From contig JAICVS010000004.1 in assembly GCA_025935195.1 (NCBI GenBank), positions 107 to 64,106 on the forward strand: a stretch of 64,000 nucleotides of DNA, in the 5' to 3' direction. Shown here piece by piece: positions 6,633-61,970 of this stretch. This DNA comes from Ktedonobacterales bacterium. GTDB taxonomy: Bacteria > Chloroflexota > Ktedonobacteria > Ktedonobacterales > JADMIN01. The notes below the pieces were generated by a model. The model saw only the letters and a list, made by a program, of their open reading frames with translations, did not search any database and was not told the DNA's origin. A program made the translations under genes and the position numbers. The number at the start of each line of letters is the position of its first letter. The first letter of the stretch is position 1.

Positions 6633-6661
6633 TTGACAGCCCACCTACTACATGGTAAATT
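6633..6661 (+). promoter_or_regulatory. sigma70-like promoter of repeat-element copy 1
   Basis: TTGACA (6633-6638), 17 nt, TAAATT (6656-6661), with TG one base upstream of the -10. The same architecture occurs in all four element copies. Confidence 0.6.
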
Positions 6662-7003
6662 AGTTCTATCGACAGGTATGCACCCCGTCACACACACACC
6701 TGAACACCTCCATACGGAAGGCAAACATGGCGCTCCCATTCCGTCGCAGCCCTTGTCCTTGCGGCATGGACCTTGCCACATCACCCCATATCCTTGCCGT
6801 TTTTACCATCTCCCTTGCCACTTCTTGCCGTTTTTGCCATCTCCCTTGCCACTTCTTGCCACTTTTGCCGCCCAGAACGCGCAACATCACGTTGCCAATT
6901 CGCCCCGCACGGCTTGAATTCGGCATCCGCGAGGAGGATGCCCCTGACACATGGCCAAAAAGCGGCAAAAACGGCAATGTTCACCATCCCAGTCAACATT
7001 GCC
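6633..7003 (+). repeat. promoter-led TTGCC-array element, copy 1 of 4 (candidate ncRNA / MITE-like)
   Basis: Shares the promoter, the AGTTCTATC start region, the CCTGAACA box, the TTGCC array, the GGCTTGAATTCGG box and the terminal palindrome GGCAATGTTCAC(6973-6984)/GTCAACATTGCC(6992-7003). A 31-nt unit is duplicated at 6794-6824 and 6825-6855. Confidence 0.75.
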
Positions 7004-7173
7004 ACGGAGATGCGGCTGGTATGATACCGCTTTGGTCTGTGGTGTCGCCCTATTCGCGGCTCGCACGGGGTACGGAATTACCCCCGGCATGTATGCCGGG
7101 AAGCGTACGAACAACAACACCCTTGCCCAAGCGGGTCTGCGAGAGAACGCCAGTGGCTCAGCACGCCTCAGCC

Positions 7174-7959: not shown

Positions 7960-10332
7960 TCACCCAGCCCCGCCCATGCGGAACCTGAGATCGTAGCTCA
8001 CAATGAAGTCGAGCTGCTCAGTGCTGAATCCGTAACCATGGGCGAGCGCGCGATCAATCTCGTCAATGATCGGCTTGCAGCGCGCCACGTCGAAGTTGAT
8101 CTCGTCGGTCGCGATGCGCGCGCCGCGCCGCCGGCGCGTCGCCGCTCCGCCACTCAGCGCGACCCCCAGCTCCGACCAGAGCGCGGCAAACGTGCCAGTG
8201 TCCGCGCCGTCAAGATCGAAGACGGGCAGGCCCACCACCTCGCGCGCCACCACATCCATGCAGTTCGAGTGGACGATCCACCACCAATAAAAGAGCTGGC
8301 TGCTCAACAGGCAGCCCACCAATGGGACCAGGCGCGCGGGAACGCGCAACTCTTTGTAGTGCGAGGAGAGCCGGATCGGCAGCGCCTTGCGCCAGTAGCG
8401 CCCGCCAGAGTGGTAGTAGATCGCCGTCCCATCGCTCGTCACATACTCGCCCAGGACATGCCCATGTGCCAACAGACGCCGCAGCAGCTCCACCTCGGCT
8501 GCGCTGCCGATCTTCGGGTAAGGACCGGGCAGACGCCGTGCGTCGTGCGGCACCTGTACGTACGCCAGTCGTTGGAAGAGGGTCGCCCGCTCGGCCGGGT
8601 CCGCGCTACGCCAGCGGTGGTAGGCGGTGCTGAAGATGGAAGCCTCGTCCGTCCGCTTCTCCAGCAGCGTAATGGTCAGGTTCATATCCACGCCCGGAAA
8701 GAGCTTGGCCGGCCGTGTGGCGAAGTGGCTGTGCCACTGCGGATAGCCCGTGTAGAGCGCCCGCAGCGACGCCATCCCCTCGGTCGAGACCGACGCGATA
8801 GGCACGATCATGCCCATCCGCCCGCCGGGTCGCAGCAGGTCCAGCGCGCGCTCGACGACCATCGCGTACAGATTGCCCGCCGCCCGTGTCCGATAGCCGC
8901 GCAGTGGGTCCGCGTCTCGCCTCGCATGGTAGCGAACGTACGGCGGATTACCGATCACCACGTCGAAGCCGCCGCGGTCGCGCATCACCCCTGGAAACAC
9001 CGCAGGCCAATGCAGCGACTGACCCTCCCCGCCAGGCTCCATAGCTCCCACAGGCGGTGTATCATCCGGGCGGACACGGCCGGCCAGCGCATCACCCGTA
9101 TGGATGTTGAGGCGGATGTCTTCGATGCCCGACAGCGCATCCGCAGGGCGGCCCGCCTGTGCGTCACCAGCGCGGACCACGAGCAGCAGGCGCAGGCGCG
9201 CGACCATGGTCGCCTCGCCGTCCAGATCCACCCCATGCAGGTTGCGAGTAACGATCGTGCGCGCGGCGAAGCGCCTCGCGCCGCCCATCCGCTCGCTCTC
9301 GTTCAGGATTGCCTGGAACGCGCCGGAAGGTCCGCCGGATTCCATCTCCGCCATCTCCGCCATACGCCGCGGGCAGGCGGCGTAGAGCGGCGCGAGAACA
9401 CGCAGCGCGCCGGCGAGAAAGGCGCCCGTGCCACAGGTGGGATCCAGGATGGTGATATTCGTCAGCGACCGCCAGAAAGCCAGCAGCAGCGCCGGATCGT
9501 CGCAACGCTCCACCACATCGCGGGCGAGGCCGACGAGATCGAGGTTTGCCGTCACCAGATCGTTGATAGAGTGGTGGTCTGGCGCCTCACGCAACAAGCG
9601 CCATACCAGGCCATCACGTGCGAACGCTGCGGGGTAGGCCTCATGGACGCTGTCCAACAGAGCGGGCACAATCGTATTGGCGGCGATATAGCCGGTGATG
9701 TCATCGGCGGTGTAGTGCGCGCCCAGGTGGCCGCGCGCGCCACCCGGCGCCAGCACGTAGCTGAGCGCAGCGGGTGTGATCGCGTCCACCGCCGGCTGTA
9801 TTTCATCAAGCTGCCAGCGGTAGGCGTCGCAGAACGCGAAGAGCCGGACGAACGCGGCGTCCGCGATATCCAGGTCAACACAATCCCGCTCCACCTGACA
9901 CGCCGCCAGCGGCTCGGCAAGGCTTCGCGGCAACCGGATAGGCGCATCTGTCATCCAGGCGTCCGAACACTCATATATCGAATCGCCCGCGCGGAACAGT
10001 GGCAGCAGCACACGGCGATAGAAGCCGCTGGACGCGGAGCTGTCGCTCTCGTCGTGGATGTGGTCGAGCTGGTGGCGCAGATAGTCCGTATCGCCAGCGA
10101 GCAGCCTCGCTCGCTGCAAGAAATAGCCGACCAGCACGCGCAGCAGCACCAGTGCGCCAACCCGCTCGCGCTCATGGGCCGTCAGCCCGCCGTCAATTGC
10201 TCCGAGCAAGTGGATACGCTCTTCACGCAAACGCGCCGCGAAGTCCCCGCGCGCGCGCGTGCCGCCGCTCGTCGTGCGCGCCGCCGCCCGCGGCCGGCCA
10301 GCGCCGCCGCGTGGCGCGGGAAGAGCTTGCAT
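7960..10332 (-). CDS. Eco57I/type IIG-like N6-adenine DNA methyltransferase
   Basis: Motif I is ILDPTCGTGAFL, motif IV is VIGNPPYVRY, and GAHYTADDI lies upstream. A C-terminal TaqI-like specificity-type region is present. The start is taken at ATG 10332 (MQALPAP...); the longer track ORF would run into the divergent thioesterase gene. Confidence 0.85.
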   Translation of the reverse strand: MQALPAPRGGAGRPRAAARTTSGGTRARGDFAARLREERIHLLGAIDGGLTAHERERVGALVLLRVLVGYFLQRARLLAGDTDYLRHQLDHIHDESDSSASSGFYRRVLLPLFRAGDSIYECSDAWMTDAPIRLPRSLAEPLAACQVERDCVDLDIADAAFVRLFAFCDAYRWQLDEIQPAVDAITPAALSYVLAPGGARGHLGAHYTADDITGYIAANTIVPALLDSVHEAYPAAFARDGLVWRLLREAPDHHSINDLVTANLDLVGLARDVVERCDDPALLLAFWRSLTNITILDPTCGTGAFLAGALRVLAPLYAACPRRMAEMAEMESGGPSGAFQAILNESERMGGARRFAARTIVTRNLHGVDLDGEATMVARLRLLLVVRAGDAQAGRPADALSGIEDIRLNIHTGDALAGRVRPDDTPPVGAMEPGGEGQSLHWPAVFPGVMRDRGGFDVVIGNPPYVRYHARRDADPLRGYRTRAAGNLYAMVVERALDLLRPGGRMGMIVPIASVSTEGMASLRALYTGYPQWHSHFATRPAKLFPGVDMNLTITLLEKRTDEASIFSTAYHRWRSADPAERATLFQRLAYVQVPHDARRLPGPYPKIGSAAEVELLRRLLAHGHVLGEYVTSDGTAIYYHSGGRYWRKALPIRLSSHYKELRVPARLVPLVGCLLSSQLFYWWWIVHSNCMDVVAREVVGLPVFDLDGADTGTFAALWSELGVALSGGAATRRRRGARIATDEINFDVARCKPIIDEIDRALAHGYGFSTEQLDFIVSYDLRFRMGGAG

Positions 10333-10520
10333 GAAGCCTCGCTGGGTGCGGCACCCTATGAGAGACGAACGGCGCGACGCTGGCGGAGCGCGCTGACAAC
10401 TATAGCGGCCGCGCCTGCCACCAGGCAAACGCCCCACATAGTGTACAACGCAACGCATGGTACACTGCCCGCGACGCGGCGATAGTTGGGCCGCACATGT
10501 AGGGTGCGTGACGACGAGGG

Positions 10521-11006
10521 ATGGCGCGAATGGACCAGCGGGCCTTTCAAGACGATCTGGCGGCAACGGGCTTCGAGCACTGCTGGGGCTGCGGCGTAGC
10601 GAACAAGCATGGCCTACGCCTGCGCAGTTTCTGGGAGGGCGACGAGGCGGTCTGCCACTGGCAGCCGCAGCCATACCACATCGCCGCGCCGGGCGCGGTC
10701 AGCGGTGGCATCCTGGCAACGCTGATAGATTGCCACTGCGCCGCCACGGCGGTAGCGACGGCATACCGTGCGGAGGGGCGCACCATCGGTACGGGCGAGC
10801 CGATCCGCTACGTCACCGCCTCGCTGGAAGTGACCTACCTGCGCCCAACACCGCTTGGGCCGCTGACGCTGCGCGCTCGCCCTGGCGAGGTCGCCGGCAG
10901 GAAGATGACCGTCAGTTGCTCAGTCTATGCGGCGACGGGCGAGGAGTGCGCACGCGGCACGGTCGTCGCGGCGCGCGTGCCGGCGACATGGCGAGCCAGC
11001 GCATAG
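10521..11006 (+). CDS. PaaI-family (hotdog-fold) thioesterase
   Basis: ...HWQPQPYHIAAPGAVSGGILATLIDCHCA... and the length of about 160 aa are typical of PaaI/YbdB thioesterases. Confidence 0.8.
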   Translation: MARMDQRAFQDDLAATGFEHCWGCGVANKHGLRLRSFWEGDEAVCHWQPQPYHIAAPGAVSGGILATLIDCHCAATAVATAYRAEGRTIGTGEPIRYVTASLEVTYLRPTPLGPLTLRARPGEVAGRKMTVSCSVYAATGEECARGTVVAARVPATWRASA

Positions 11007-11019
11007 GATGCGTTCTCAG

Positions 11020-11105
11020 TGGTAGGGCGGGCGGGACTCGAACCCGCACGGGGTTGCCCCCAAGGGATTTTAAGTCCCCTGTGTCTGCCATTTCACCACC
11101 GCCCC
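11020..11105 (-). tRNA. tRNA-Leu (anticodon UAA)
   Basis: The rc folds as a cloverleaf. The acceptor is GGGGCGG/CCGCCCT, the anticodon stem-loop is GGGGA-CUUAAAA-UCCCU, the variable arm is long, the T-arm is GCGGG-TTCGAGT-CCCGC, and a 3' CCA is encoded. Confidence 0.9.
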
Positions 11106-12665: not shown

Positions 12666-12888
12666 GCTGTTCTCCCATCCCGCGCGCTGGAGCGCGCGCT
12701 CATTCGCGAAGCCCATCAGCTCATCCCTCCGACTCGCACATCCCGATTCGCGCACCGATTGCCTGCGATTTGCCTGCGATTTGCCTGCGATCCACACCTC
12801 GATGGGCTGTACAGGCCCATAGCGACCCGTTCCACCTGTACCCTCAGCCCCATGTATGGCGGATAGTGACTGAGATCACTCCCACTTC

Positions 12889-13506
12889 CTATCCGCTGCT
12901 GTAGCGCCAGCCGGCCACGAGCAATTGCCAGATGCGCGGCGCCACCGCTCGCGGGAAGAAGGTCTCCGGCACGAGCAGCCAGGCGCGCACCAGCCCGTTG
13001 CCCACGCCCACGAAACTGAGCACCGCCGCTTCCACGTCCAGCGCCCGCGGGAGCTCGCCCGCCGCCACCGCCGCCAGCAGCTTCTCCGTCACGAACGCCT
13101 GCGCGCGCCGCTCCTCCGCCCGGCGCGCGTCCATCGCCTCGCGCGGCTCATCGGCTACCTCGATGCGCAGGTGCGCCAGCCGCACGTACGCCTGGTAGCC
13201 CTCGTCGGTTTCGAGCGCCTCCATCCAGCGCAGCCACATCGCCTCCAAGGCGGCCAGCGGGCTGGGCGCCTGCCGGGCGGCGTCCTCCAGAATCTCGGAG
13301 AAGATGCTGGCCCGCTCCCCCAGCAGCGCGGCAAAGAGGGCGGCTTTGCTGTCGAAGTACCAGTAGATGGCGCCTTTGCTCAGATTCGCCGCCGCCGTGA
13401 TGTCGTCCAGCGTGGTGCCGGCGTACCCCTGGCGGCTGAAGACGTTGGTCGCCGCCGCGAGAATCTGCCGCCGCGCCAGCGGGTCGGCTTGCTTCGGTCT
13501 GGGCAT
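12889..13506 (-). CDS. TetR/AcrR-family transcriptional regulator
   Basis: The N-terminal HTH is ILAAATNVFSRQGYAGTTLDDITAAANLSKGAIYWYFDSK. GAGGTG precedes ATG 13506. Confidence 0.9.
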   Translation of the reverse strand: MPRPKQADPLARRQILAAATNVFSRQGYAGTTLDDITAAANLSKGAIYWYFDSKAALFAALLGERASIFSEILEDAARQAPSPLAALEAMWLRWMEALETDEGYQAYVRLAHLRIEVADEPREAMDARRAEERRAQAFVTEKLLAAVAAGELPRALDVEAAVLSFVGVGNGLVRAWLLVPETFFPRAVAPRIWQLLVAGWRYSSG

Positions 13507-13595
13507 CGCGCACCTCGACATGTTCACATACTATCCAGTCGGTATTCAAATCATACCCGCAAATCGCGCGCGCGTCAAGAGGGTGTGATCTCAGT

Positions 13596-14387
13596 CTAGT
13601 CCGAGACCGTCGTTTCGTTGTGCAGGGCGAAGACGCCGGGCACGTGCCAGATGTCTTGCTCGGCTGAGGCGCGGTGGCGCGGGGAGGGCAGTGTGCCGAA
13701 GAGGCGCACGTCGCCGTCATGCACGATGCAGCGCAGCCCGCCGGTGTATGGCGCGATGGCTGGGTTGGCGTCCAGGATCGCCCAGATGTCGGCGGCGACC
13801 TCTTCGTCGCGGCGCAGCACTGTCGAGGATGCCAGTTGCTCGGCGGTCGCATCCAGATGCAGCGCCAGCTCGCCGCCCCGTGAGAGCAGCCCACCGTCTT
13901 CGGACTTGGTCGCCGTTGCCCAGGCCGGCGAGACCAGAATGCGCCGACCGCTCATGGCGACCAGCGGCATCATTGGGCTTGTGGGCAGATCCACCTCGGC
14001 GAGCACGTCATTGCGCACGCGCACGACCAGTTCGATCACCAGCCCGGTGCGGGTGTCCACCGTCAGCCCGTGCAGGCGACCAACGTAGCCTTCGTGACAG
14101 TGGACACGCATGCCGCTACGTAGCTCGATGGCGTCGGGTGTCGGCACCGGCGACTGCGCGGTTGTCAGCGGCACCGTTGTGACCGCGCGCTTGCCCCATC
14201 TCCCCGTGCGCAGCCGCAGCCATCCCTCACCTGTGCTGGCGCGCAGCCGCGCGCCTACGAGGCGTCCCGTGAGGCCGTCTATGCCGCGGAACTTCGCGGG
14301 CACTGTGGGCAGCTCCTCGCCCGCCATACGCGCGTCGAAGCGCAATGTCTGCCGCACCGACCGATCTCCGTTCATCGCTGCCGCCAT
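13596..14387 (-). CDS. PRC-barrel-like plus BON-domain protein
   Basis: MRVHCHEGYVGRLHGLTVDTRTGLVIELVV is PRC-barrel-like. The C-terminal ...CIVHDGDVRLFGTLPSPRHRASAEQDIWHVPGV is BON-like. The start codon is uncertain. Confidence 0.55.
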   Translation of the reverse strand: MAAAMNGDRSVRQTLRFDARMAGEELPTVPAKFRGIDGLTGRLVGARLRASTGEGWLRLRTGRWGKRAVTTVPLTTAQSPVPTPDAIELRSGMRVHCHEGYVGRLHGLTVDTRTGLVIELVVRVRNDVLAEVDLPTSPMMPLVAMSGRRILVSPAWATATKSEDGGLLSRGGELALHLDATAEQLASSTVLRRDEEVAADIWAILDANPAIAPYTGGLRCIVHDGDVRLFGTLPSPRHRASAEQDIWHVPGVFALHNETTVSD

Positions 14388-14656
14388 GTACTGTGTGTAC
14401 GTCGCGTTGCCAGCGCCTGTCAATCCCGTCACGTCCACAACCACTGCTTCCGCCTCCAGGTGTCTGGCCGGCCCAGGTGGCGCTCGCGCGCATGCGGAGT
14501 CAACCGAGACTATTCTATCCGTCCGCTCGCGTCGCCGCAACCACGGTGCGCATCGCCGGCTCGCATATCCAGACGACTTGGGCGCGCTCCGCGCCACCAG
14601 GCGCGCCAATTGCCCATAACAGGCTGTCCGCGGCACATCGCATGCCACTCCGGAAG

Positions 14657-14718
14657 GACGACGAGAACGACCACAGAGGACACGGAGGATACGGAGGAAC
14701 AGAGGAGGAGGAGAAAGG
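14657..14718. repeat. GGAGG-rich short-period repeat (family C, copy 1)
   Basis: GACGACGAGAACGACCACAGAGGACACGGAGGATACGGAGGAACAGAGGAGG... is closely similar to 58821-58873. Confidence 0.7.
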
Positions 14719-14866
14719 ATGCGACTCCATCTCTGTGTGGCGGCGGCTGGCACGCCGCGGCGCGCACGAGTACAATATCACCGGCATCTTTGCCATTTTC
14801 ATCTGGCTCGGCTCCTCGCGCATCCGGGCGCTTCACAACTGCTACGCCCTGTTCAGGAGGACTTTC

Positions 14867-15184
14867 ATGGATACCCAGACGATGCTGATTCTGCTGATCA
14901 TCGCCACGGTGCTGGCGTTGCCTGGCGGGCTCTTTGTGGCGGGGATGCTGGCGCGGGCCCGCACGCGCTGGGCGGCGCTGCTCGGCGGCCTGATCGGCGC
15001 CGTTGTGGTGGCGGCGGCTGTCTTCGCGTACGTCTCCAGCGCGCCGAACCTCAGCCTGGATGGTCTCACCTACTTTCTCGGCGCCTTCTTCGCCGTCTCC
15101 GTGGGGGCTTTCAGCGGCGCGCTGCTCATCAACTTTCTCTTTGGCCTGGGCGGCCGCACCCCTGACATCAGCTCTGAATTCTGA
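14867..15184 (+). CDS. small integral membrane protein
   Basis: AGGAGG (14855-14860) precedes ATG 14867. There are three predicted hydrophobic helices. Confidence 0.7.
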   Translation: MDTQTMLILLIIATVLALPGGLFVAGMLARARTRWAALLGGLIGAVVVAAAVFAYVSSAPNLSLDGLTYFLGAFFAVSVGAFSGALLINFLFGLGGRTPDISSEF

Positions 15185-15257
15185 TCGCGATACCGATCAC
15201 GGAGCCGAGACCTGGCGGGCGCGCAATGCGAGTGGCGCTCACCCTAGCCGGTCGCGC

Positions 15258-15616
15258 GGCAATGTTGACCTGTTCAGTCAACATTGCCGTTTTTGCCACT
15301 TTTCAACTGTGTGCCAGGAGTGTCACCTTCTCAACCCCCGAATTCAAGCCATGTGGCGTGGATTGGCAACTTGACGTTTCGTGTTATGGGTGGCAAAAGT
15401 GGCACGATCGCGGCAAGAAGTGGCAACGGATGGCAAGATGGGCGGCAAAAACGGCAACGTTTGAGCGGGTACGGCCATTTCCACGCGATCATACTCGCGG
15501 CTGCCATCGGGTGAGATGAGCAACTACAGTCCGCTATGCGATTGTTCAGGTGCCGACGGAGCTAGATGACTCCGCATTGATAGAACTAAATTACCACGAA
15601 ACTGGCGGGGTGTCAA
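15258..15616 (-). repeat. promoter-led TTGCC-array element, copy 2 of 4 (best preserved; candidate ncRNA / MITE-like)
   Basis: The minus strand carries the promoter, AGTTCTATC, the hairpin CGGAG-N8-CTCCG, CCTGAACAATCGCATA, seven phased TTGCC/GTGCC motifs, GGCTTGAATTCGG, and a perfect palindrome GGCAATGTTGAC/GTCAACATTGCC (15258-15269 / 15277-15288). Confidence 0.8.
15588..15616 (-). promoter_or_regulatory. sigma70-like promoter of repeat-element copy 2
   Basis: Minus strand: TTGACA (rc of 15611-15616), 17 nt, TAATTT (rc of 15588-15593). Confidence 0.6.
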
Positions 15617-16214: not shown

Positions 16215-16550
16215 TGCCGCACCTCCCGCTGACTATGGAACACCACAGGGCGGATGCGGGTGAGGCCGCGAGAACCGCACGCTCAACCGGCGAAGATCAG
16301 GGACCGATGGATCGCCGCCGGCGGATCGCTCGCTCGACTGGCCGCCCGCTGCCGCTGGGCGCCTGGAAGTGGCATCTCGTGTACTTTCGTCCCGACCAGA
16401 ACATGTCCATCTGTACACATATACGTCATTGACACATAGCAGGTGACGTGCCAAGGCCGCTCGCAGCGTTTGCGAGACCGCTACAAGCTATGACGAGCAC
16501 GCGGCGTGAAGGTTGTCAGGCATAGCCCGGAGAGGATGGTGGTGCGGGCT

Positions 16551-16610
16551 GGCGGGTGAACCCGCACCTGAGGACGTGCCGCCACGAAGTCCGGCCAAGC
16601 CGGACCGGGA
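16551..16610 (+). repeat. REP-like element, family B, copy 1
   Basis: GGCGGGTGAACCCGCACCTGAGGACGTGCCGCCACGAAGTCCGGCCAAGCCGGACCGGGA. It shares consensus with 27865, 40478, 50023 and 53308 (rc). Confidence 0.8.
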
Positions 16611-16626
16611 AGAGAGGCGCTCTAAC

Positions 16627-29533: not shown

Positions 29534-29586
29534 AGTCCTCACCCCCCGGCCCCTCTCCCCGCGGGGAGAAGGGGAGAGGGGGAGCC
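29534..29586 (+). repeat. REP-like palindromic element, family A, copy 1
   Basis: AGTCCTCACCCCCCGGCCCCTCTCCCCGCGGGGAGAAGGGGAGAGGGGGAGCC. The hairpin core is CCCCTCTCCCC-GCG-GGGGAGA(A)GGGG. Confidence 0.85.
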
Positions 29587-31599: not shown

Positions 31600-31880
31600 G
31601 CGCGCCTCACTCGCGGGGGGAACGGGACGAGAGCACTACGACGGGGGATGGTTGGTGATGGATGATGGCGGGCGAGCCGCAGGGCAGACGCCCCACGTTC
31701 TTTCGCATTCTTTATGGGCATGGTGAAAGCGGAACGGACACTTCCCGGCACGCTCCCTGGCATGCATGCCGGGAGGACTCTCCTACGGACGCTTCCCGGG
31801 ATGCATGCCGGGGGTGATTCTGTCATCGTGGCGGGTGCGTGGGCGGGCGCTGGCGCTCCAGTATACCACTCCGGCGCGGG

Positions 31881-31920
31881 GTTCCTCACCCCCGGCCCCC
31901 TCTCCTTGTGGGAAGAGGGG
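31881..31920 (+). repeat. REP-like element, family A, copy 2 (nested inside repeat-element copy 3)
   Basis: GTTCCTCACCCCCGGCCCCCTCTCCTTGTGGGAAGAGGGG. Confidence 0.75.
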
Positions 31921-31955
31921 CGTCGCGGCGTCGTAGCCGGCGATCAGCCGGGGCT

Positions 31956-32315
31956 GCAATGTTCACCAGCGCAGTCAACATTGCCGTTTTTGCCGCTTTT
32001 CGGTTTTGTATCGGTCGTGTCCTCCTCTCGAACGCCGAATTCAAGCCGCATGGCGTGGATCGGGAACTTGACATGTGGCGTTATGGGCGGCAAAAGTGGC
32101 AAGAAACGGCAATGAAGTGGCAACGGATGGCACGGTCGGTGGCAAAACGGCAAGGTTTGCGCAGGGGTGTGGGTGCATCCTGGTCGTCATGCCGGCGGCT
32201 GCCGTTGGGGGCGAGGAGCGTATTCGCGTCTGTATGCGGTTGTTCAGGGTGCTGGCGGTGTGGAGTGGCGCCAGGTCAATAGAACTAATTTACTACAGAA
32301 GATGAGGGATGTCAA
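31956..32315 (-). repeat. promoter-led TTGCC-array element, copy 3 of 4
   Basis: The minus strand carries the promoter, AGTTCTATT, the hairpin CTGGCG-N11-CGCCAG, CCTGAACAACCGCATA, the TTGCC array, GGCTTGAATTCGG, and the terminal palindrome (31956-31966 / 31974-31985). Confidence 0.75.
32287..32315 (-). promoter_or_regulatory. sigma70-like promoter of repeat-element copy 3
   Basis: Minus strand: TTGACA (rc of 32310-32315), 17 nt, TAAATT (rc of 32287-32292). Confidence 0.6.
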
Positions 32316-34506: not shown

Positions 34507-34551
34507 AGTCCTCACCCCCCGGCCCCCTCTCCCCGCGAGGAGAGGGGGGCC
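34507..34551 (+). repeat. REP-like element, family A, copy 3
   Basis: AGTCCTCACCCCCCGGCCCCCTCTCCCCGCGAGGAGAGGGGGGCC, located between convergent genes. Confidence 0.85.
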
Positions 34552-35527: not shown

Positions 35528-35573
35528 AGTCCTCACTCCCCGATCCCCCTCTCCCTGTGGGGAGAGGGGAGCC
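35528..35573 (+). repeat. REP-like element, family A, copy 4
   Basis: AGTCCTCACTCCCCGATCCCCCTCTCCCTGTGGGGAGAGGGGAGCC. Confidence 0.85.
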
Positions 35574-35625
35574 AGAGCCACGCCGCACCGACCGGGTGGG
35601 CAGTGGTTCCGTGAAGAATCCGGGC

Positions 35626-36275: not shown

Positions 36276-36332
36276 GTTCCTCACCCCTAGCCCCCTCTCC
36301 CCGCGGGGAGAGGGGGAGCCAGAGGGGGAGCC
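36276..36332 (+). repeat. REP-like element, family A, copy 5
   Basis: GGTTCCTCACCCCTAGCCCCCTCTCCCCGCGGGGAGAGGGGGAGCCAGAGGGGGAGCC. Confidence 0.85.
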
Positions 36333-37990: not shown

Positions 37991-38300
37991 AGATGCCCCC
38001 TTTCGCGCGCGTGCGGATGGGTGATGCGGGTCGCCTGCCCGACCACCCGCGGCAGCATAGCAGGTCGCGCCGGGGAGAGCAAGCACGAGAGGCAGAGGCA
38101 GGCTGGCGCGTGATGGGGTTTTCCACATGGGGACGGACACGCGCCCGCGCGGGGCGGCCGGCGATTGCAATCGCGCCTGGAGGGCCGCGAGGGCCGCGCG
38201 TCGCGGACTGGGAGACGCGACGCGCGGATGGGAACCATTTACAAGCTCTGTGGACGGAGACGTGATCACGTCCCCACTACGTCCCGGCGTCCTCCGCGGT

Positions 38301-40391: not shown

Positions 40392-40477
40392 CCTCGCCCG
40401 TACCCTTTCCTCTCTGATGGAGGTCGGATGGTGTCTCGTTGAGGTCACAGTCCGCGCGGGCAGGCCGGCGAATGAAT

Positions 40478-40526
40478 TCGCGCCTGGGGGCATGCCGCCG
40501 CGACGTCCGCCTACGCGGACTGGGAT
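40478..40526 (+). repeat. REP-like element, family B, copy 3 (partial)
   Basis: TCGCGCCTGGGGGCATGCCGCCGCGACGTCCGCCTACGCGGACTGGGAT. Confidence 0.7.
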
Positions 40527-42660: not shown

Positions 42661-42706
42661 GTTCCTCACCGCCCAACCCCCTCTCCCCGCGGGGAGAGGG
42701 GGAGCC
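42661..42706 (+). repeat. REP-like element, family A, copy 6
   Basis: GTTCCTCACCGCCCAACCCCCTCTCCCCGCGGGGAGAGGGGGAGCC, located between convergent genes. Confidence 0.85.
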
Positions 42707-50007: not shown

Positions 50008-50022
50008 GGGCGCGGGCGGGCC

Positions 50023-50081
50023 GGCGGGTACACCCGCGCCTAGGGGCTGCGCCGCGAAGTCCGGCCAAGCCGGACTGGGAT
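50023..50081 (+). repeat. REP-like element, family B, copy 4
   Basis: GGCGGGTACACCCGCGCCTAGGGGCTGCGCCGCGAAGTCCGGCCAAGCCGGACTGGGAT. Confidence 0.8.
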
Positions 50082-61406: not shown

Positions 61407-61435
61407 TTGACTTCCCGACTTCTTCATGGTATATT
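61407..61435 (+). promoter_or_regulatory. sigma70-like promoter of repeat-element copy 4
   Basis: TTGACT (61407-61412), 17 nt, TATATT (61430-61435), with TG one base upstream of the -10. Confidence 0.55.
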
Positions 61436-61757
61436 CGTTCTATCATCATGGCGCCATCTGACGCCGCTGGCACCTGAACAATCGCATACCGCGAGCAAAC
61501 GCGCCATCCGCGCTCGAGGGCGGGCGTTCGCATAGGAGCATGGATGTGGCCGCACCCGCACCACATCATGCCGTTTTTGCCGCCCACCTTGCCAGATCGT
61601 TGCCGTATCTTGCCGCTTTTGCCACCCATAACACCACATGTCACGTGGCGACAAACGGCAAAGCGGCTTGAATTGCGGATTCGAAAGGAGGACGCGCCCG
61701 GCGCAAGATCAAAAAGCGGCAAAAACGGCAATGTTGACCATCCCGGTCAACTTTGCC
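61407..61757 (+). repeat. promoter-led TTGCC-array element, copy 4 of 4
   Basis: It carries the promoter, CGTTCTATC, the hairpin GGCG-N8-CGCC, CCTGAACAATCGCATA, the TTGCC array, GGCTTGAATTGCGG, and the terminal palindrome GGCAATGTTGAC(61727-61738)/GTCAACTTTGCC(61746-61757). Confidence 0.75.
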
Positions 61758-61970
61758 GCCTGGGAATGCGCAGAGGAGGTGAGACTGATGTGGCCTGAGT
61801 CGTTGTCGTATTGTCTCCCGTACGAGACCGGGATTACCCCCGGCATTCATGCCGGCAGGCCAACGAACGACAACAGCGCACACCAATGCGGTGTCATACG
61901 TGATGGGGCATAGGATATAATAGCGAAAATGCGCCGGGCGAATGGACGGACAGCGAGAGGATGAAGATCA

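What the first reader, a model, noticed from the sequence alone, without database searches (positions are those of the whole stretch)
15258..15616. Four-copy, promoter-led structured element of about 360 nt: candidate novel multicopy ncRNA or promoter-carrying mobile element
Four related elements lie at 6633-7003 (+), 15258-15616 (-), 31956-32315 (-) and 61407-61757 (+). Read in the promoter direction, each has these parts in order:
1. TTGACA/TTGACT, exactly 17 nt, then TAAATT/TAATTT/TATATT. The hexamers and spacing are conserved, but the 17-nt spacer differs in all four copies, which is the pattern expected of a selected promoter.
2. A conserved (A/C)GTTCTAT(C/T) at the expected transcription start.
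3. A short hairpin whose stem sequence differs while pairing is kept: CGGAG/CTCCG in copy 2, CTGGCG/CGCCAG in copy 3, GGCG/CGCC in copy 4.
4. A nearly invariant CCTGAACAA(T/C)CGCATA box.
5. A variable segment.
6. A conserved core of about 200 nt carrying the TTGCC array and a GGCTTGAATT(C)G box. The core is bracketed by TTGCCGTTTTTGCC(G/A)C and its complement G(C/T)GGCAAAAACGGCAA, with a G-U pair in copy 2.
7. A 12-bp palindrome, GGCAATGTTGAC-N7/8-GTCAACATTGCC.

The elements are visibly AT-richer than their surroundings. The only recurring ORF (MPFLPLF...GGKSGK...) is antisense to the promoter, has a stop in copy 3, and loses all conservation after about 45 codons, so I read the element as non-coding. 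I do not recognise it as any named RNA family or IS end.
Basis: seen in the sequence. Interest (0 to 1): 0.85.

Follow-up and report, generated by a model that had tools for sequence, protein, structure and literature searches.

The report
Dispersed promoter-led TTGCC-repeat non-coding elements
A soil Ktedonobacterales bacterium carries many diverged copies of a ~360-bp non-coding unit with its own strong promoter, a phased TTGCC repeat array and a terminal hairpin; it matches no described RNA or mobile-element family, is kept by selection, and its function is still unknown.

Summary
Four ~360-bp copies (70-75% identical) share one architecture: a near-consensus sigma-70 promoter, GTTCTAT, a 5' hairpin, a 20-nt box, a variable spacer, a phased TTGCC array, a fixed-length core and a terminal palindrome. 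The family is large, with at least 84 distinct copies in soil metagenomes. It belongs to a narrow ~68%-GC Ktedonobacterales clade and was absent from about 145 kb sampled in relatives. It has no Rfam, plasmid, phage or literature match.

Orthologous copies are islands of conservation between unalignable flanks, so each copy is old and under purifying selection. It is not coding, and it has no target-site duplication, transposase neighbour or near-identical copies.

Only the 5' hairpin shows significant covariation. The 3' core is conserved as sequence motifs, not helices. A forward promoter persists even where the 5' module is replaced, so transcription into the core is what is selected.

Best reading (about 0.4): autonomous non-coding transcription units whose C-rich RNA carries a periodic UUGCC platform with the geometry of a Rho loading site. 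The palindrome plus U-tract on the other strand terminates convergent genes.

Rivals: a domesticated mobile promoter element, a DNA-binding array, or a cis-acting leader.

The parts
15258..15616 (-). Copy 2, whole element from the -35 to the end of the terminal palindrome
   Evidence: Alignment of the four copies. The orthologue L085 is alignable from exactly the -35 to about 7 nt past the palindrome, and its upstream flank is unrelated.
15588..15616 (-). Copy 2 promoter: TTGACA (15611-15616), 17-nt spacer ending in TGG, TAATTT (15588-15593)
   Evidence: Read from the sequence. The hexamers are kept and the spacer has diverged in orthologue L085. The same layout appears in about 55 of 88 family members. 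This copy is just under the scan tool's threshold.
15580..15586 (-). Invariant GTTCTAT in the discriminator / start-site region
   Evidence: Invariant columns in A1 and A2. It occurs only 4 times in the window, once per copy.
15554..15579 (-). 5' hairpin (CGGAG / CTCCG in this copy), the only helix with covariation
   Evidence: Across 45 copies: 251 Watson-Crick pairs, 13 G.T, 23 A.C, 4 other. Energy is -9.1 against -5.3 kcal/mol for shuffles. There are 26 double-change cells against 12.6+-2.8, and the covariation score is 0.241 against 0.149, both 0/500 shuffles.
15535..15550 (-). Conserved box CCTGAACAATCGCATA, the core of GCACC(U)UGAACAACCGCAUA
   Evidence: 4 hits against 0.41 expected. Nearly invariant columns in A2. 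It never occurs without the 3' core in held sequence; the one apparent exception among 54 modules has an expanded array.
15458..15534 (-). Variable spacer (~78 nt)
   Evidence: Diverged between paralogues and in orthologue L085. No self-structure (mean z -0.05) and no co-evolution with the array (p=0.67).
15392..15457 (-). TTGCC array (7 units, two of them as GTGCC / TTTGCC), 9-12-nt period
   Evidence: Read from the sequence. TTGCC clusters in the window coincide with the four elements, with one 3-unit exception. Family spacing is 9:142, 10:94, 11:60, 12:54, with 3-10 units per copy. About 97% identical to orthologue L085, higher than the adjacent coding gene.
15304..15391 (-). Central core with conserved boxes CCCATAAC, GTCAAGTTGCC and GGCTTGAATT (15341-15350)
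   Evidence: Consensus and conservation. The distance from the last array unit to the 3' inverted repeat is exactly 101 nt in 73/94 copies. No covarying pairs were found.
15284..15303 (-). 3' inverted repeat AAAAGTGGCAAAAACGGCAA, an inverted copy of two array units
   Evidence: Exact in all 4 window copies and used as the metagenome anchor. Inverted repeats to array units of 15-18 nt. 80/88 copies keep a 14-nt partner with at most 1 mismatch, against 3/88 in the control orientation.
15258..15288 (-). Terminal palindrome GGCAATGTTGAC-N7-GTCAACATTGCC. Read on the + strand it is followed by GTTTTTGCCACTTTT, an intrinsic-terminator shape facing the convergent gene that ends at 15184.
   Evidence: 13-nt arms, 100% complementary. 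The + strand hairpin folds at -22.7 kcal/mol, z -6.4. The convergent ORF ends 74 nt away.
6633..7003 (+). Copy 1: -35 6633-6638, -10 6656-6661, GTTCTAT 6663-6669, box 6699-6714 (degenerate), array 6773-6871, GGCTTGAATT 6911-6920, 3' inverted repeat 6958-6977, palindrome 6973-7003
   Evidence: The reverse-strand hairpin folds at -17.1 kcal/mol. The downstream gene 7960-10674 is convergent.
31955..32315 (-). Copy 3: -35 32310-32315, -10 32287-32292, GTTCTAT 32279-32285, hairpin 32252-32278, box 32233-32248, array 32089-32153, GGCTTGAATT 32038-32047, 3' inverted repeat 31981-32000, palindrome 31955-31985 (imperfect)
   Evidence: It lies between a glgA-like gene and uvrB. uvrB has its own TGGTATACT promoter about 90 nt downstream of the element.
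61407..61757 (+). Copy 4: -35 61407-61412, -10 61430-61435, GTTCTAT 61437-61443, hairpin 61444-61469, box 61473-61488, array 61547-61623, GGCTTGAATT 61665-61674, 3' inverted repeat 61712-61731, palindrome 61727-61757
   Evidence: It lies upstream of a DUF6909 gene. No orthologous copy was found upstream of that gene in 8 relatives.

Best explanation
Each element is an autonomous, non-coding transcription unit. The units belong to a large, old, lineage-specific family in a ~68%-GC clade of soil Ktedonobacterales.

Proposed working:
- A near-consensus sigma-70 promoter, often with an extended -10, starts an RNA of about 320-340 nt just after the invariant GTTCTAT.
- The RNA opens with a hairpin whose pairing, not its sequence, is selected. 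This is most simply a 5' protective or recognition stem.
- Next come a conserved single-stranded 20-nt box and an unconstrained ~78-nt spacer.
- The payload is the constant 3' core: 3-10 UUGCC pentamers separated by 4-7-nt linkers in C-rich, G-poor RNA, then a fixed-length segment with conserved boxes, then an inverted copy of two array units and a 12-bp terminal hairpin.

I propose that the pentamer array is a multivalent docking platform for an oligomeric RNA-binding protein. The best candidate is the Rho hexamer, whose primary binding site takes 5-nt segments separated by 4-5-nt linkers on C>G RNA of 60-90 nt. The unit would then recruit Rho to end its own transcript, and any read-through from upstream, near the terminal hairpin. 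On the other strand the same palindrome followed by GUUUUUGCCRCUUUU acts as an intrinsic terminator for genes that converge on the element.

Shown: the family, its architecture, promoter conservation and orientation, hairpin covariation, non-coding status, purifying selection at orthologous sites, and the array's periodicity and composition.

Inferred: that the promoter fires, where the RNA ends, that the array is read as RNA, and that Rho is the partner.
For: - Family size and common architecture.
- Promoter: hexamers and 17-nt spacing are conserved while the spacer is free, among paralogues and between orthologues. The tool promoters for 3 of the 4 window copies.
- A forward promoter persists when the 5' module is different: 13 forward against 3 reverse of 37, plus about 8 TGGTACACT-type promoters seen by eye; in the standard class 34 against 1. 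Transcription into the core in one direction is therefore the conserved feature.
- 5' hairpin covariation is significant against both controls.
- Orthologous pairs show an island of conservation from the -35 to the palindrome with unalignable flanks. The array is about 97% identical where the neighbouring gene is less conserved by eye, roughly 85-90%.
- Downstream genes keep their own conserved promoters, so the unit is independent.
- Not coding.
- Array geometry: pentamer plus 4-7-nt linker, period 9-12 nt with a mean of 10.1, and 3-10 units.
- Composition: C 0.37 and G 0.20 in the array; C 0.33-0.45 against G 0.17-0.30 along the transcript.
- Rho's primary binding site takes 5 nt plus 4-5-nt linkers, in C>G-biased RNA, with 60-90 nt optimal (PMC12360218).
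- Reverse-strand hairpins of -17 to -23 kcal/mol followed by a U-tract in 3 of 4 copies. Convergent genes end a median of 95 nt from the palindrome.
Against: - No expression data of any kind.
- In predicted folds of the nascent RNA the array is not more accessible than the upstream sequence (unpaired 0.44 against 0.49), whereas rut sites are expected to be poorly structured.
- Rho needs little sequence specificity. Strict UUGCC conservation, and 97% identity of linkers between orthologues, are more than a rut site should need.
- The same pentamer sits at a fixed position upstream of the -35, outside the transcript, in 9 of 33 copies. The ~10.1-nt period also equals the DNA helical repeat. Both points favour a DNA-binding reader.
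- Mismatches in every candidate helix are of the kind that would be G.U on the non-transcribed strand (A.C 23 against G.T 13; 18 against 2; 37 against 0).
- The terminator scan tool did not flag the reverse-strand hairpins.
- A self-terminating unit leaves unexplained why it carries a strong promoter at all.
Confidence: 0.4

Rival explanations
1. A domesticated, non-autonomous mobile element (MITE-like 'mobile promoter'). An ancestral ~360-bp element carrying an outward-reading promoter spread through intergenic DNA of one Ktedonobacterales clade. It was mobilised in trans by an enzyme encoded elsewhere, possibly through a single-stranded DNA intermediate that uses the hairpins and inverted repeats. 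The copies have since decayed or been co-opted.
For: - Many dispersed copies next to unrelated genes.
- Restricted to a narrow clade: none in about 145 kb from 8 relatives, against 4 in 64 kb here.
- Contigs of related strains end at the element.
- A 99%-identical strain carries a different variant and different neighbouring DNA at the copy 2 site.
- A short terminal inverted repeat CGGCAAT...ATTGCCG in a subset.
- The mismatch spectrum fits G.T-tolerant hairpins on the bottom strand, as in ssDNA-mobilised elements.
- Modular 5' ends.
Against: - No target-site duplication.
- No long terminal inverted repeat.
- No transposase, recombinase or reverse transcriptase among neighbours in 120 loci.
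- Window copies are only 70-75% identical, and the family median is 58%, so there has been no recent burst.
- Orthologous copies are retained across species with a mosaic pattern of purifying selection, which decaying insertions would not show.
- The 5' hairpin stem varies in sequence, so a sequence-specific transposase could not read it.
- No clean filled-versus-empty orthologous site was found.
Confidence: 0.2
2. A DNA-level protein-binding platform. The helically phased TTGCC units, the inverted units and the palindrome are operators for a DNA-binding protein (a response-regulator-like, ribbon-helix-helix-like or nucleoid-associated factor). The promoter is regulated by, or merely linked to, this platform.
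For: - Mean spacing of 10.1 bp equals one helical turn.
- Direct units followed by inverted units and a palindrome whose two arms drift independently (18 C.C, 0 compensated), as expected for half-sites and not for an RNA stem.
- No RNA covariation in the core.
- GGCAA at a fixed position 21 nt upstream of the -35 in 9 of 33 copies, outside the transcript.
- A fixed 101-bp distance between the left and right inverted repeats.
- The units resemble -35 hexamers (TTGCCA against TTGACA; read from the sequence).
Against: - Promoter orientation relative to the array is constant even where the promoter module has been replaced. A DNA site alone would not require that.
- The 5' hairpin shows RNA-type covariation.
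- The strong C>G skew of the transcribed strand extends beyond the repeat units.
- No candidate binding-protein gene is linked to the elements.
- Phased TTGCC clusters do not occur at other promoters in the window.
Confidence: 0.15
3. A cis-acting promoter-plus-leader cassette. The element supplies an extra promoter and a long regulatory leader to the gene downstream. The leader would combine a BoxB-like hairpin, a BoxA-like box, a rut-like array, and a 3' GGCAA that can pair either with an array unit or within the terminal hairpin. Read-through would be decided by Rho and Nus factors.
For: - The nearest downstream gene is co-directional in 49 of 75 loci.
- The layout of hairpin then conserved box mirrors rrn BoxB-BoxA leaders, and the box matches E. 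coli BoxA GCUCUUUAACAA at 9/12 and the gamma-proteobacterial consensus GYTCTTTAANA at 7/10 (PMC5725501).
- The 3' GGCAA can pair alternatively with an array unit or within the terminal hairpin.
- Some variants have SOS-type GAAC-N4-GTTC boxes on their promoters.
Against: - 26 of 75 downstream genes are convergent, including at window copies 1 and 2.
- Co-directional downstream genes have their own conserved promoters between the element and the start codon.
- Downstream genes share no function.
- The BoxA resemblance could be chance (my estimate is about 0.1) and could not be compared with this lineage's rRNA leader.
- The terminal hairpin has no U-tract in the forward direction.
Confidence: 0.15
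4. A small protein gene or a type I toxin-antitoxin locus hidden in the element.
For: - One forward frame reads open through the consensus core (...LPLLPPITRNVKLPI...RLEFGIREE...KSGKNGNV...), and the central core has a fixed length.
- A few variants have a Shine-Dalgarno sequence plus ATG upstream in that frame (L099).
- Size and multicopy nature resemble type I toxin mRNAs (my own knowledge).
Against: - Stops in 24/73 copies in the best frame.
- Entropy by codon position is 0.80/0.82/0.90, barely periodic.
- Array indels are 9-12 nt and not multiples of three.
- A 1-nt indel between orthologues L065 and L073 shifts the frame.
- Standard copies have no Shine-Dalgarno or start codon.
- No conserved hydrophobic peptide.
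- The array is more conserved between orthologues than a coding gene, with no third-position pattern.
Confidence: 0.03

Closest known systems
REP/BIME mosaic elements of enterobacteria (and REPINs)
   Same: Abundant, intergenic, modular or mosaic elements found next to unrelated genes. They have roles at transcript ends (termination, including Rho-dependent attenuation, and mRNA stabilisation) and in protein binding; that functional comparison rests on my own knowledge. They break assemblies.
   Different: REP units are 20-40-nt imperfect palindromes without promoters, and they are mobilised by RAYT transposases. Here the unit is about 360 bp, carries a near-consensus promoter, a phased pentamer array and a fixed-length core, and no RAYT link was seen.
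Correia elements (CREE/NEMIS) of Neisseria and other promoter-bearing MITEs
   Same: Dispersed intergenic repeats that can supply promoters and terminators to neighbouring genes.
   Different: Correia elements are 100-160 bp, with 26-bp terminal inverted repeats, a TA target duplication and high copy identity. Here there is no TSD, at most a 7-bp terminal repeat in a subset, and 58-75% identity between copies with orthologous conservation.
Rho utilisation (rut) sites / Rho-dependent terminators
   Same: C>G-skewed RNA of about 40-90 nt. Conserved 5-nt units with 4-7-nt linkers match the 5-nt-plus-4-5-nt-linker footprint of Rho's primary binding site (PMC12360218).
   Different: Natural rut sites are sequence-degenerate and not recognisably periodic. 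This array is a sequence-defined repeat conserved at single-nucleotide level, it is not predicted to be unstructured, and Rho dependence is untested.
rRNA-operon / lambda nut antitermination leaders (BoxB hairpin + BoxA)
   Same: A strong promoter, then a hairpin conserved in pairing but not in sequence, then a conserved single-stranded box containing CUUGAACAA (compare CUUUAACAA).
   Different: Only 7/10 matches to the published gamma-proteobacterial consensus. The box is 20 nt long. No rRNA follows. Variants of the family lack the box altogether.
Multicopy bacterial ncRNA families in Rfam (e.g. HEARO/omega RNA, Chloroflexi-1, Yfr2)
   Same: Multiple diverged intergenic copies per genome, non-coding, lineage-restricted.
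   Different: No match to any of 4227 Rfam models, even at E<=10 for copy 2. No associated nuclease or transposase gene. Most of the element lacks conserved secondary structure.

Membership tests
Any Rfam 15 family | Covariance-model score at or above the family's gathering threshold | tested here: not met
   Whole window at the gathering threshold: only a tRNA at 11023-11105. Copy 2 +-150 nt at E<=10: only two chance-level hits.
MITE / IS-derived non-autonomous transposon | Terminal inverted repeats at both ends | tested here: inconclusive
   Only a 7-nt CGGCAAT...ATTGCCG repeat, in 9 of 33 copies with enough upstream sequence. The strong inverted repeats are internal, between array units and the 3' segment.
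MITE / IS-derived non-autonomous transposon | Target-site duplication flanking the element | tested here: not met
   Flanks of 8 copies with defined GGCAAT...ATTGCC ends show no direct repeat. No duplication appears at the boundaries defined by orthologous alignments.
MITE / IS-derived non-autonomous transposon | Near-identical copies and insertion polymorphism (filled and empty sites) | tested here: not met
   Copies are 70-75% identical in the window, and the family median is 58%. No clean empty site was found: L087 is a synteny break, and relatives lack synteny upstream of the DUF6909 gene.
MITE / IS-derived non-autonomous transposon | A cognate transposase in the genome whose element ends match | not testable with these tools
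   No transposase among neighbours in 120 loci.
Rho-dependent terminator (rut site) | C>G-biased RNA segment of about 60-90 nt | tested here: met
   Array composition is C 0.37 and G 0.20. With 3-10 units (mostly 4-8) at ~10 nt each, the array is about 40-80 nt.
Rho-dependent terminator (rut site) | Segments of ~5 nt spaced by 4-5-nt linkers to fit the six primary binding sites | tested here: met
   Unit spacing is 9 (142), 10 (94), 11 (60) and 12 (54), against the geometry quoted in PMC12360218. This shows geometric fit only.
Rho-dependent terminator (rut site) | Little secondary structure in the nascent RNA | tested here: inconclusive
   Predicted unpaired probability is 0.44 in the array against 0.49 upstream. 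There is no conserved or co-evolving pairing with the spacer.
Rho-dependent terminator (rut site) | Termination depends on Rho | not testable with these tools
   Needs bicyclomycin treatment, Rho depletion or in-vitro assays.
Nus-factor antitermination leader (BoxB-BoxA) | BoxA matching the consensus (GYTCTTTAANA in gamma-proteobacteria) | tested here: inconclusive
   GCACCTGAACA matches 7 of 10 specified positions, and the box matches E. coli rrn BoxA at 9/12. This lineage's own rRNA BoxA is unknown and could not be fetched.
Nus-factor antitermination leader (BoxB-BoxA) | A hairpin of conserved pairing next to the box, downstream of a strong promoter | tested here: met
Intrinsic terminator (read on the strand opposite to the promoter) | GC-containing hairpin immediately followed by a U-tract | tested here: inconclusive
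   Hairpins fold at -22.7, -17.1 and -23.0 kcal/mol (copies 2, 1, 4) and -11.4 (copy 3), each followed by GUUUUUGCCRCUUUU. The consensus scan tool did not flag them.
Type I toxin-antitoxin / small ORF | A conserved short ORF with a start signal | tested here: not met
LexA (SOS)-controlled promoter, Gram-positive/Chloroflexi type | GAAC-N4-GTTC box overlapping the promoter | tested here: not met
   The window has zero such boxes. A minority of family members elsewhere do carry one (L066, L079, L092, L093, L165).

The most novel reading that the evidence does not exclude
The elements are genes for a new class of abundant regulatory RNA whose business end is a sequence-defined, periodic (UUGCC-N4-7)n ligand for a ring-shaped RNA-binding machine, most plausibly Rho. 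Each unit would act as a chromosomal Rho-loading or Rho-titrating module and as a bidirectional transcription insulator with its own promoter. That would make it the first natural, idealised rut site with one pentamer per Rho subunit. A second, less likely novel reading is a scaffold-guide-scaffold RNA, in which the copy-specific ~78-nt spacer between the constant 5' and 3' handles carries target specificity.
Probability: 0.15. Interest if true: 0.85.

Novelty: new variant of a known kind. Interest (0 to 1): 0.6.

Why it matters
Ktedonobacteria are large-genome, filamentous soil Chloroflexota with essentially no described non-coding RNA or repeat biology.

If the density seen here (4 units per 64 kb) holds across the genome, a family of promoter-bearing non-coding units maintained by selection would amount to a few hundred extra transcription start sites per genome. 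It would also be a major organiser of intergenic transcription.

If the periodic UUGCC array is indeed read by Rho or another oligomeric RNA-binding protein, it offers a rare sequence-defined natural ligand. That would make directly testable how such machines recognise RNA, something that has been hard to define for rut sites.

In practical terms, the element breaks metagenome assemblies of this clade, and it could serve as a lineage marker.

Tried and rejected
- **Genome-collection scan.** No genome-wide copy count or taxonomic survey was therefore possible by that route.
- **RNAalifold on the MAFFT alignment of the 5' module.** It predicted nothing because stems shift register. I replaced it with per-sequence folding and explicit pair counting.
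- **Strand assignment from G.U against A.C counts.** Inconclusive or contrary to the promoter direction.
- **Long-range RNA helices in the core.** A mutual-information scan, swap-control duplex tests and explicit counts for P1a, P1b, P2 and the palindrome were all negative for compensation.
- **Coding potential.** Rejected.
- **LexA/SOS control of the window copies.** Rejected, as the window has no GAAC-N4-GTTC box.
- **Cyanobacterial origin (HIP1).** Rejected: 1 GCGATCGC site against about 10 expected. The organism is Ktedonobacterales.
- **Recurrent neighbour gene, transposase or recombinase.** None.
- **Filled-versus-empty site search.** Tried through L087 and through nine look-ups of DUF6909 homologues (eight gave sequence, from eight relatives). 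Synteny is not conserved, so there was no clean test.
- **Orthologous uvrB spacers from related strains.** The contigs end before the element.
- **Plasmid and phage similarity.** None. Viral contigs: none.
- **Literature searches** for the MAG accession, TTGCC repeats, and Ktedonobacteria ncRNAs or repeats. Nothing relevant.
- **CCCGGCATGCATGCCGGG palindrome as part of the element.** The association is only weak.
Full report
**Observation.** Pairwise identity is only 70-75%, so these are diverged paralogues and not fresh repeats.

The signature pieces are far beyond chance. The 18-mer GGCAAAAACGGCAATGTT occurs four times against 0.01 expected. The CCTGAACAAYCGCATA box occurs four times against 0.41 expected. 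GTTCTAT occurs exactly four times in 64 kb, once per copy. The repeat tool finds the array-to-3' inverted repeats (14-18 nt, 88-100%) and the terminal palindrome in all four copies. GC drops to 0.56-0.60 at the elements. Copy 1 has a degenerate hairpin and box, and copy 3 has an imperfect palindrome.

**Organism and family size.** UvrB of the window falls in a 90% cluster that includes a Ktedonobacterales protein, and the window is a whole 64,232-bp contig. DUF6909 homologues are also Ktedonobacterales and Thermogemmatispora.

Of 88 copies with full upstream sequence, 84 are below 90% identity.

About 145 kb sampled around DUF6909 orthologues in eight relatives (69-88% protein identity, GC 0.60-0.67) contains no copy, against four in 64 kb here. 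The family is therefore confined to a narrow, ~68%-GC clade.

There is no match in Rfam, plasmids or phages, or the literature searched.

**Anatomy.** The family is modular. The constant part is the ~200-nt 3' core, which has these pieces in order:
- 3-10 TTGCC units at 9-12-nt spacing, mean 10.1.
- A central segment with the boxes CCCATAAC, GTCAAGTTGCC and GGCTTGAATTC. A sub-type has three GGCAA units here instead. The length is exactly 101 nt from the last unit to the 3' repeat in 73 of 94 copies.
- The near-invariant AAAAAGCGGCAAAAACGGCAA, which is an inverted copy of two array units.
- The palindrome GGCAATGTTGAC-N7-GTCAACATTGCC.

About 55 of 88 copies carry the standard 5' module: TTGACA, a 17-nt spacer often ending in TGn, TAAATT, AGTTCTATCA, a hairpin, then GCACC(T)TGAACAACCGCATA. 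In the sequence I hold, that module is never found without the core; the one apparent exception among 54 has an expanded array.

The remaining copies have other 5' modules. Some have promoters overlapped by GAAC-N4-GTTC boxes, and some have SD+ATG. Even so, a forward-facing promoter is still found far more often than a reverse one: 13 against 3 of 37 by the strict scan, plus about 8 of the TGGTACACT type by eye; in the standard class, 34 against 1. Transcription into the core in one direction is thus the persistent feature.

**Selection.** Four orthologous pairs were compared: window copy 2/L085, L095/L131, L119/L140 and L065/L073. All show the same picture. Similarity starts at the -35 (or at a GGCAATCC motif about 20 nt upstream) and ends at or a few nucleotides past the palindrome. 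The sequence immediately outside is unalignable even though the neighbouring genes align well.

Within the element:
- The promoter hexamers are kept and the spacer is free.
- The hairpin changes by compensation.
- The ~78-nt spacer is the least conserved part.
- The TTGCC array, linkers included, is about 97% identical in copy 2/L085, which is above the adjacent coding gene.

This is the signature of old, vertically inherited, functional units. Downstream genes keep their own conserved promoters, so the element is not simply their promoter.

**Context.** No protein family recurs next to the element, and the neighbours are housekeeping genes. The nearest downstream gene is co-directional in 49 loci and convergent in 26. 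The upstream gene is co-directional in 30 and divergent in 28. Contigs of related strains stop just short of the element. One contig that is 99% identical up to window position 14713 carries a different variant there and lacks the small membrane-protein gene.

**RNA structure.** The 5' hairpin is the only helix with statistical support:
- 251 Watson-Crick pairs, 13 G.T, 23 A.C and 4 others over 45 copies.
- -9.1 against -5.3 kcal/mol for shuffles.
- 26 double-change cells against 12.6+-2.8, and a covariation score of 0.241 against 0.149, both 0 of 500 shuffles and better than every slid register.

Whole elements fold better than shuffles on both strands, with z -3.2 and -2.4. In the core, however, no helix is compensated:
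- An all-pairs mutual-information scan finds only register shifts among the repeat units.
- Own-versus-swapped duplex tests are flat.
- Explicit counts show uncompensated variation. At the G/C position of the palindrome there are 18 C.C, 2 G.G and no C-G pairs, and the 3' arm carries A-to-T in 20 of 73 copies.

The inverted repeat itself is nonetheless universal. 80 of 88 copies keep a 14-nt partner of GGCAAAAACGGCAA with at most one mismatch, against 3 of 88 in the control orientation. The core is therefore conserved as sequence, not as pairing.

One point remains unexplained. Mismatches in all candidate helices are of the kind that would be G.U on the strand opposite to the promoter. This could reflect selection for low G on the transcript.

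**Not coding.** The best frame has stops in 24 of 73 copies. Variability by codon position is 0.80/0.82/0.90. Array indels are 9-12 nt, and orthologues differ by a 1-nt indel.

**Not demonstrably mobile.** There is no target-site duplication. At most there is a 7-nt terminal repeat in a subset. There is no transposase neighbour and no near-identical copy.

**Mechanism.** The transcript would be C-rich (C 0.33-0.45, G 0.17-0.30). Its array consists of conserved pentamers separated by 4-7-nt linkers.

[quoted passage not shown] The array fits that geometry unusually well, so I commit to this as the most likely reading: an autonomous non-coding unit whose RNA loads Rho, or another oligomeric RNA-binding protein.

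On the opposite strand, the palindrome followed by GUUUUUGCCRCUUUU has the shape of an intrinsic terminator. It folds at -17 to -23 kcal/mol in copies 1, 2 and 4, and two of those face convergent genes that end within about 100 nt.

Caveats are real:
- The array is not predicted to be especially unpaired.
- Conservation is stricter than Rho should need.
- The period equals the DNA helical repeat.
- The pentamer also occurs at a fixed place upstream of the -35 in a subset. A DNA-binding reader therefore cannot be excluded.

The layout of hairpin followed by box also recalls rrn BoxB-BoxA leaders, with 9/12 matches to E. coli BoxA and 7/10 to the published consensus (PMC5725501). That could be chance, and I could not compare it with this lineage's rRNA leader.

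**Verdict.** This is a real, large, previously undescribed family of promoter-bearing non-coding intergenic units in one Ktedonobacterales clade.
- The general claim (functional, transcribed in one direction, non-coding, vertically maintained) is well supported; I put it at about 0.8.
- The specific Rho-platform mechanism is a hypothesis at about 0.4.
- It is not a member of any known RNA or mobile-element family tested here.
- In kind it is closest to mosaic intergenic repeats such as BIMEs and to promoter-bearing MITEs, but it differs from both in size, promoter, array and mode of conservation.

Noticed in passing
window 29534-29576, 31881-31920, 34507-34548, 35528-35577, 36276-36325, 42661-42704 (all read on the - strand): A ~50-nt repeat family made of a GC-rich hairpin CCCCTCTCCCC-N4-GGGGAGAGGGG followed by CCGGGGGGTGAGGAAC. 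Six copies sit in intergenic regions. The G-rich tail also lies just upstream of the -35 of many family members in the metagenome loci, and similar hairpins occur in the distant relative L181.
   Followed up: partly
window 16548-16616, 38108-38186, 40450-40523, 50010-50078; also L181 ~9580-9660 and L184 ~2880-2960: A second dispersed repeat of about 75 nt with two hairpins (GGCGGGTGAACCCGCGCCTGG ... AAGTCCGGCCAAGCCGGACTGGGA). Unlike the TTGCC element it is also present in 60-62%-GC relatives, and it often lies next to the 5' edge of TTGCC elements.
   Followed up: partly
window 7083-7100, 31756-31773, 31795-31812, 61839-61856: The 18-nt palindrome CCCGGCATGCATGCCGGG occurs only four times in the window, always 80-200 nt downstream of an element (copies 1, 3 and 4). 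Across the metagenome loci the association is weak: 8 of 105 within 100 nt, against 1-3% in other bins. The same hairpin is embedded in some variant 5' modules (L065, L073, L078, L112).
   Followed up: yes
window 14713-15258 compared with L155 1888-1976: A contig 99% identical to window 12835-14713 lacks the 545-nt segment that holds a small three-helix membrane-protein ORF (about 14866-15184, + strand). At the same place it carries a different variant of the element, followed by a Fur-family gene not present in the window. This is either strain-level structural variation or chimeric assembly at the repeat.
   Followed up: partly
window 14670-14720 (+); L130, L155 and other loci just downstream of the palindrome: Tandem CACGGAGGA / CCTCCGTG-type motifs (ACAGAGGACACGGAGGATACGGAGGAACAGAGGAGGAGGAG) lie upstream of the gene at 13596-14500(-). 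Similar CU-rich CCTCCGTG runs follow the palindrome in several variant loci.
   Followed up: no
L066, L079, L092, L093, L147, L165 (5' modules); L077, L099, L142, L159: A minority of family members have promoters overlapped by AGAAC-N4-GTTCT, or by GAAAY-N4-GTTCKATAAT. These look like Gram-positive/Chloroflexi-type LexA operators and would make those copies SOS-inducible. No such box exists in the window.
   Followed up: partly
L156, about 90 to at least 150 nt into the 380-nt stretch upstream of its 3' anchor: The TTGCC array has expanded into a perfect tandem run of at least 8 copies of the 9-nt unit TTGCCACCC, showing that the array can grow by slippage.
   Followed up: no
L174 and L175 (contig ends 131-208 nt upstream of uvrB); the P0012 contig (starts 260 nt upstream of the DUF6909 gene): Contigs from related strains end close to where an element sits in the window, and many metagenome loci have the anchor within 30 nt of a contig end. 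The element appears to be a systematic assembly breakpoint for this clade.
   Followed up: partly
window 11023-11105 (-): This tRNA gene is the only Rfam hit in the window. Its upstream region has a TTGTCA...TATAAC promoter-like sequence but none of the element's motifs.
   Followed up: no
window 15376-15386 and 15592-15602: In copy 2, the promoter spacer (TACCACGAAAC) is 91% complementary over 11 nt to a stretch of the central core (GTTTCGTGTTA). This was seen only in this copy and is probably coincidence.
   Followed up: no
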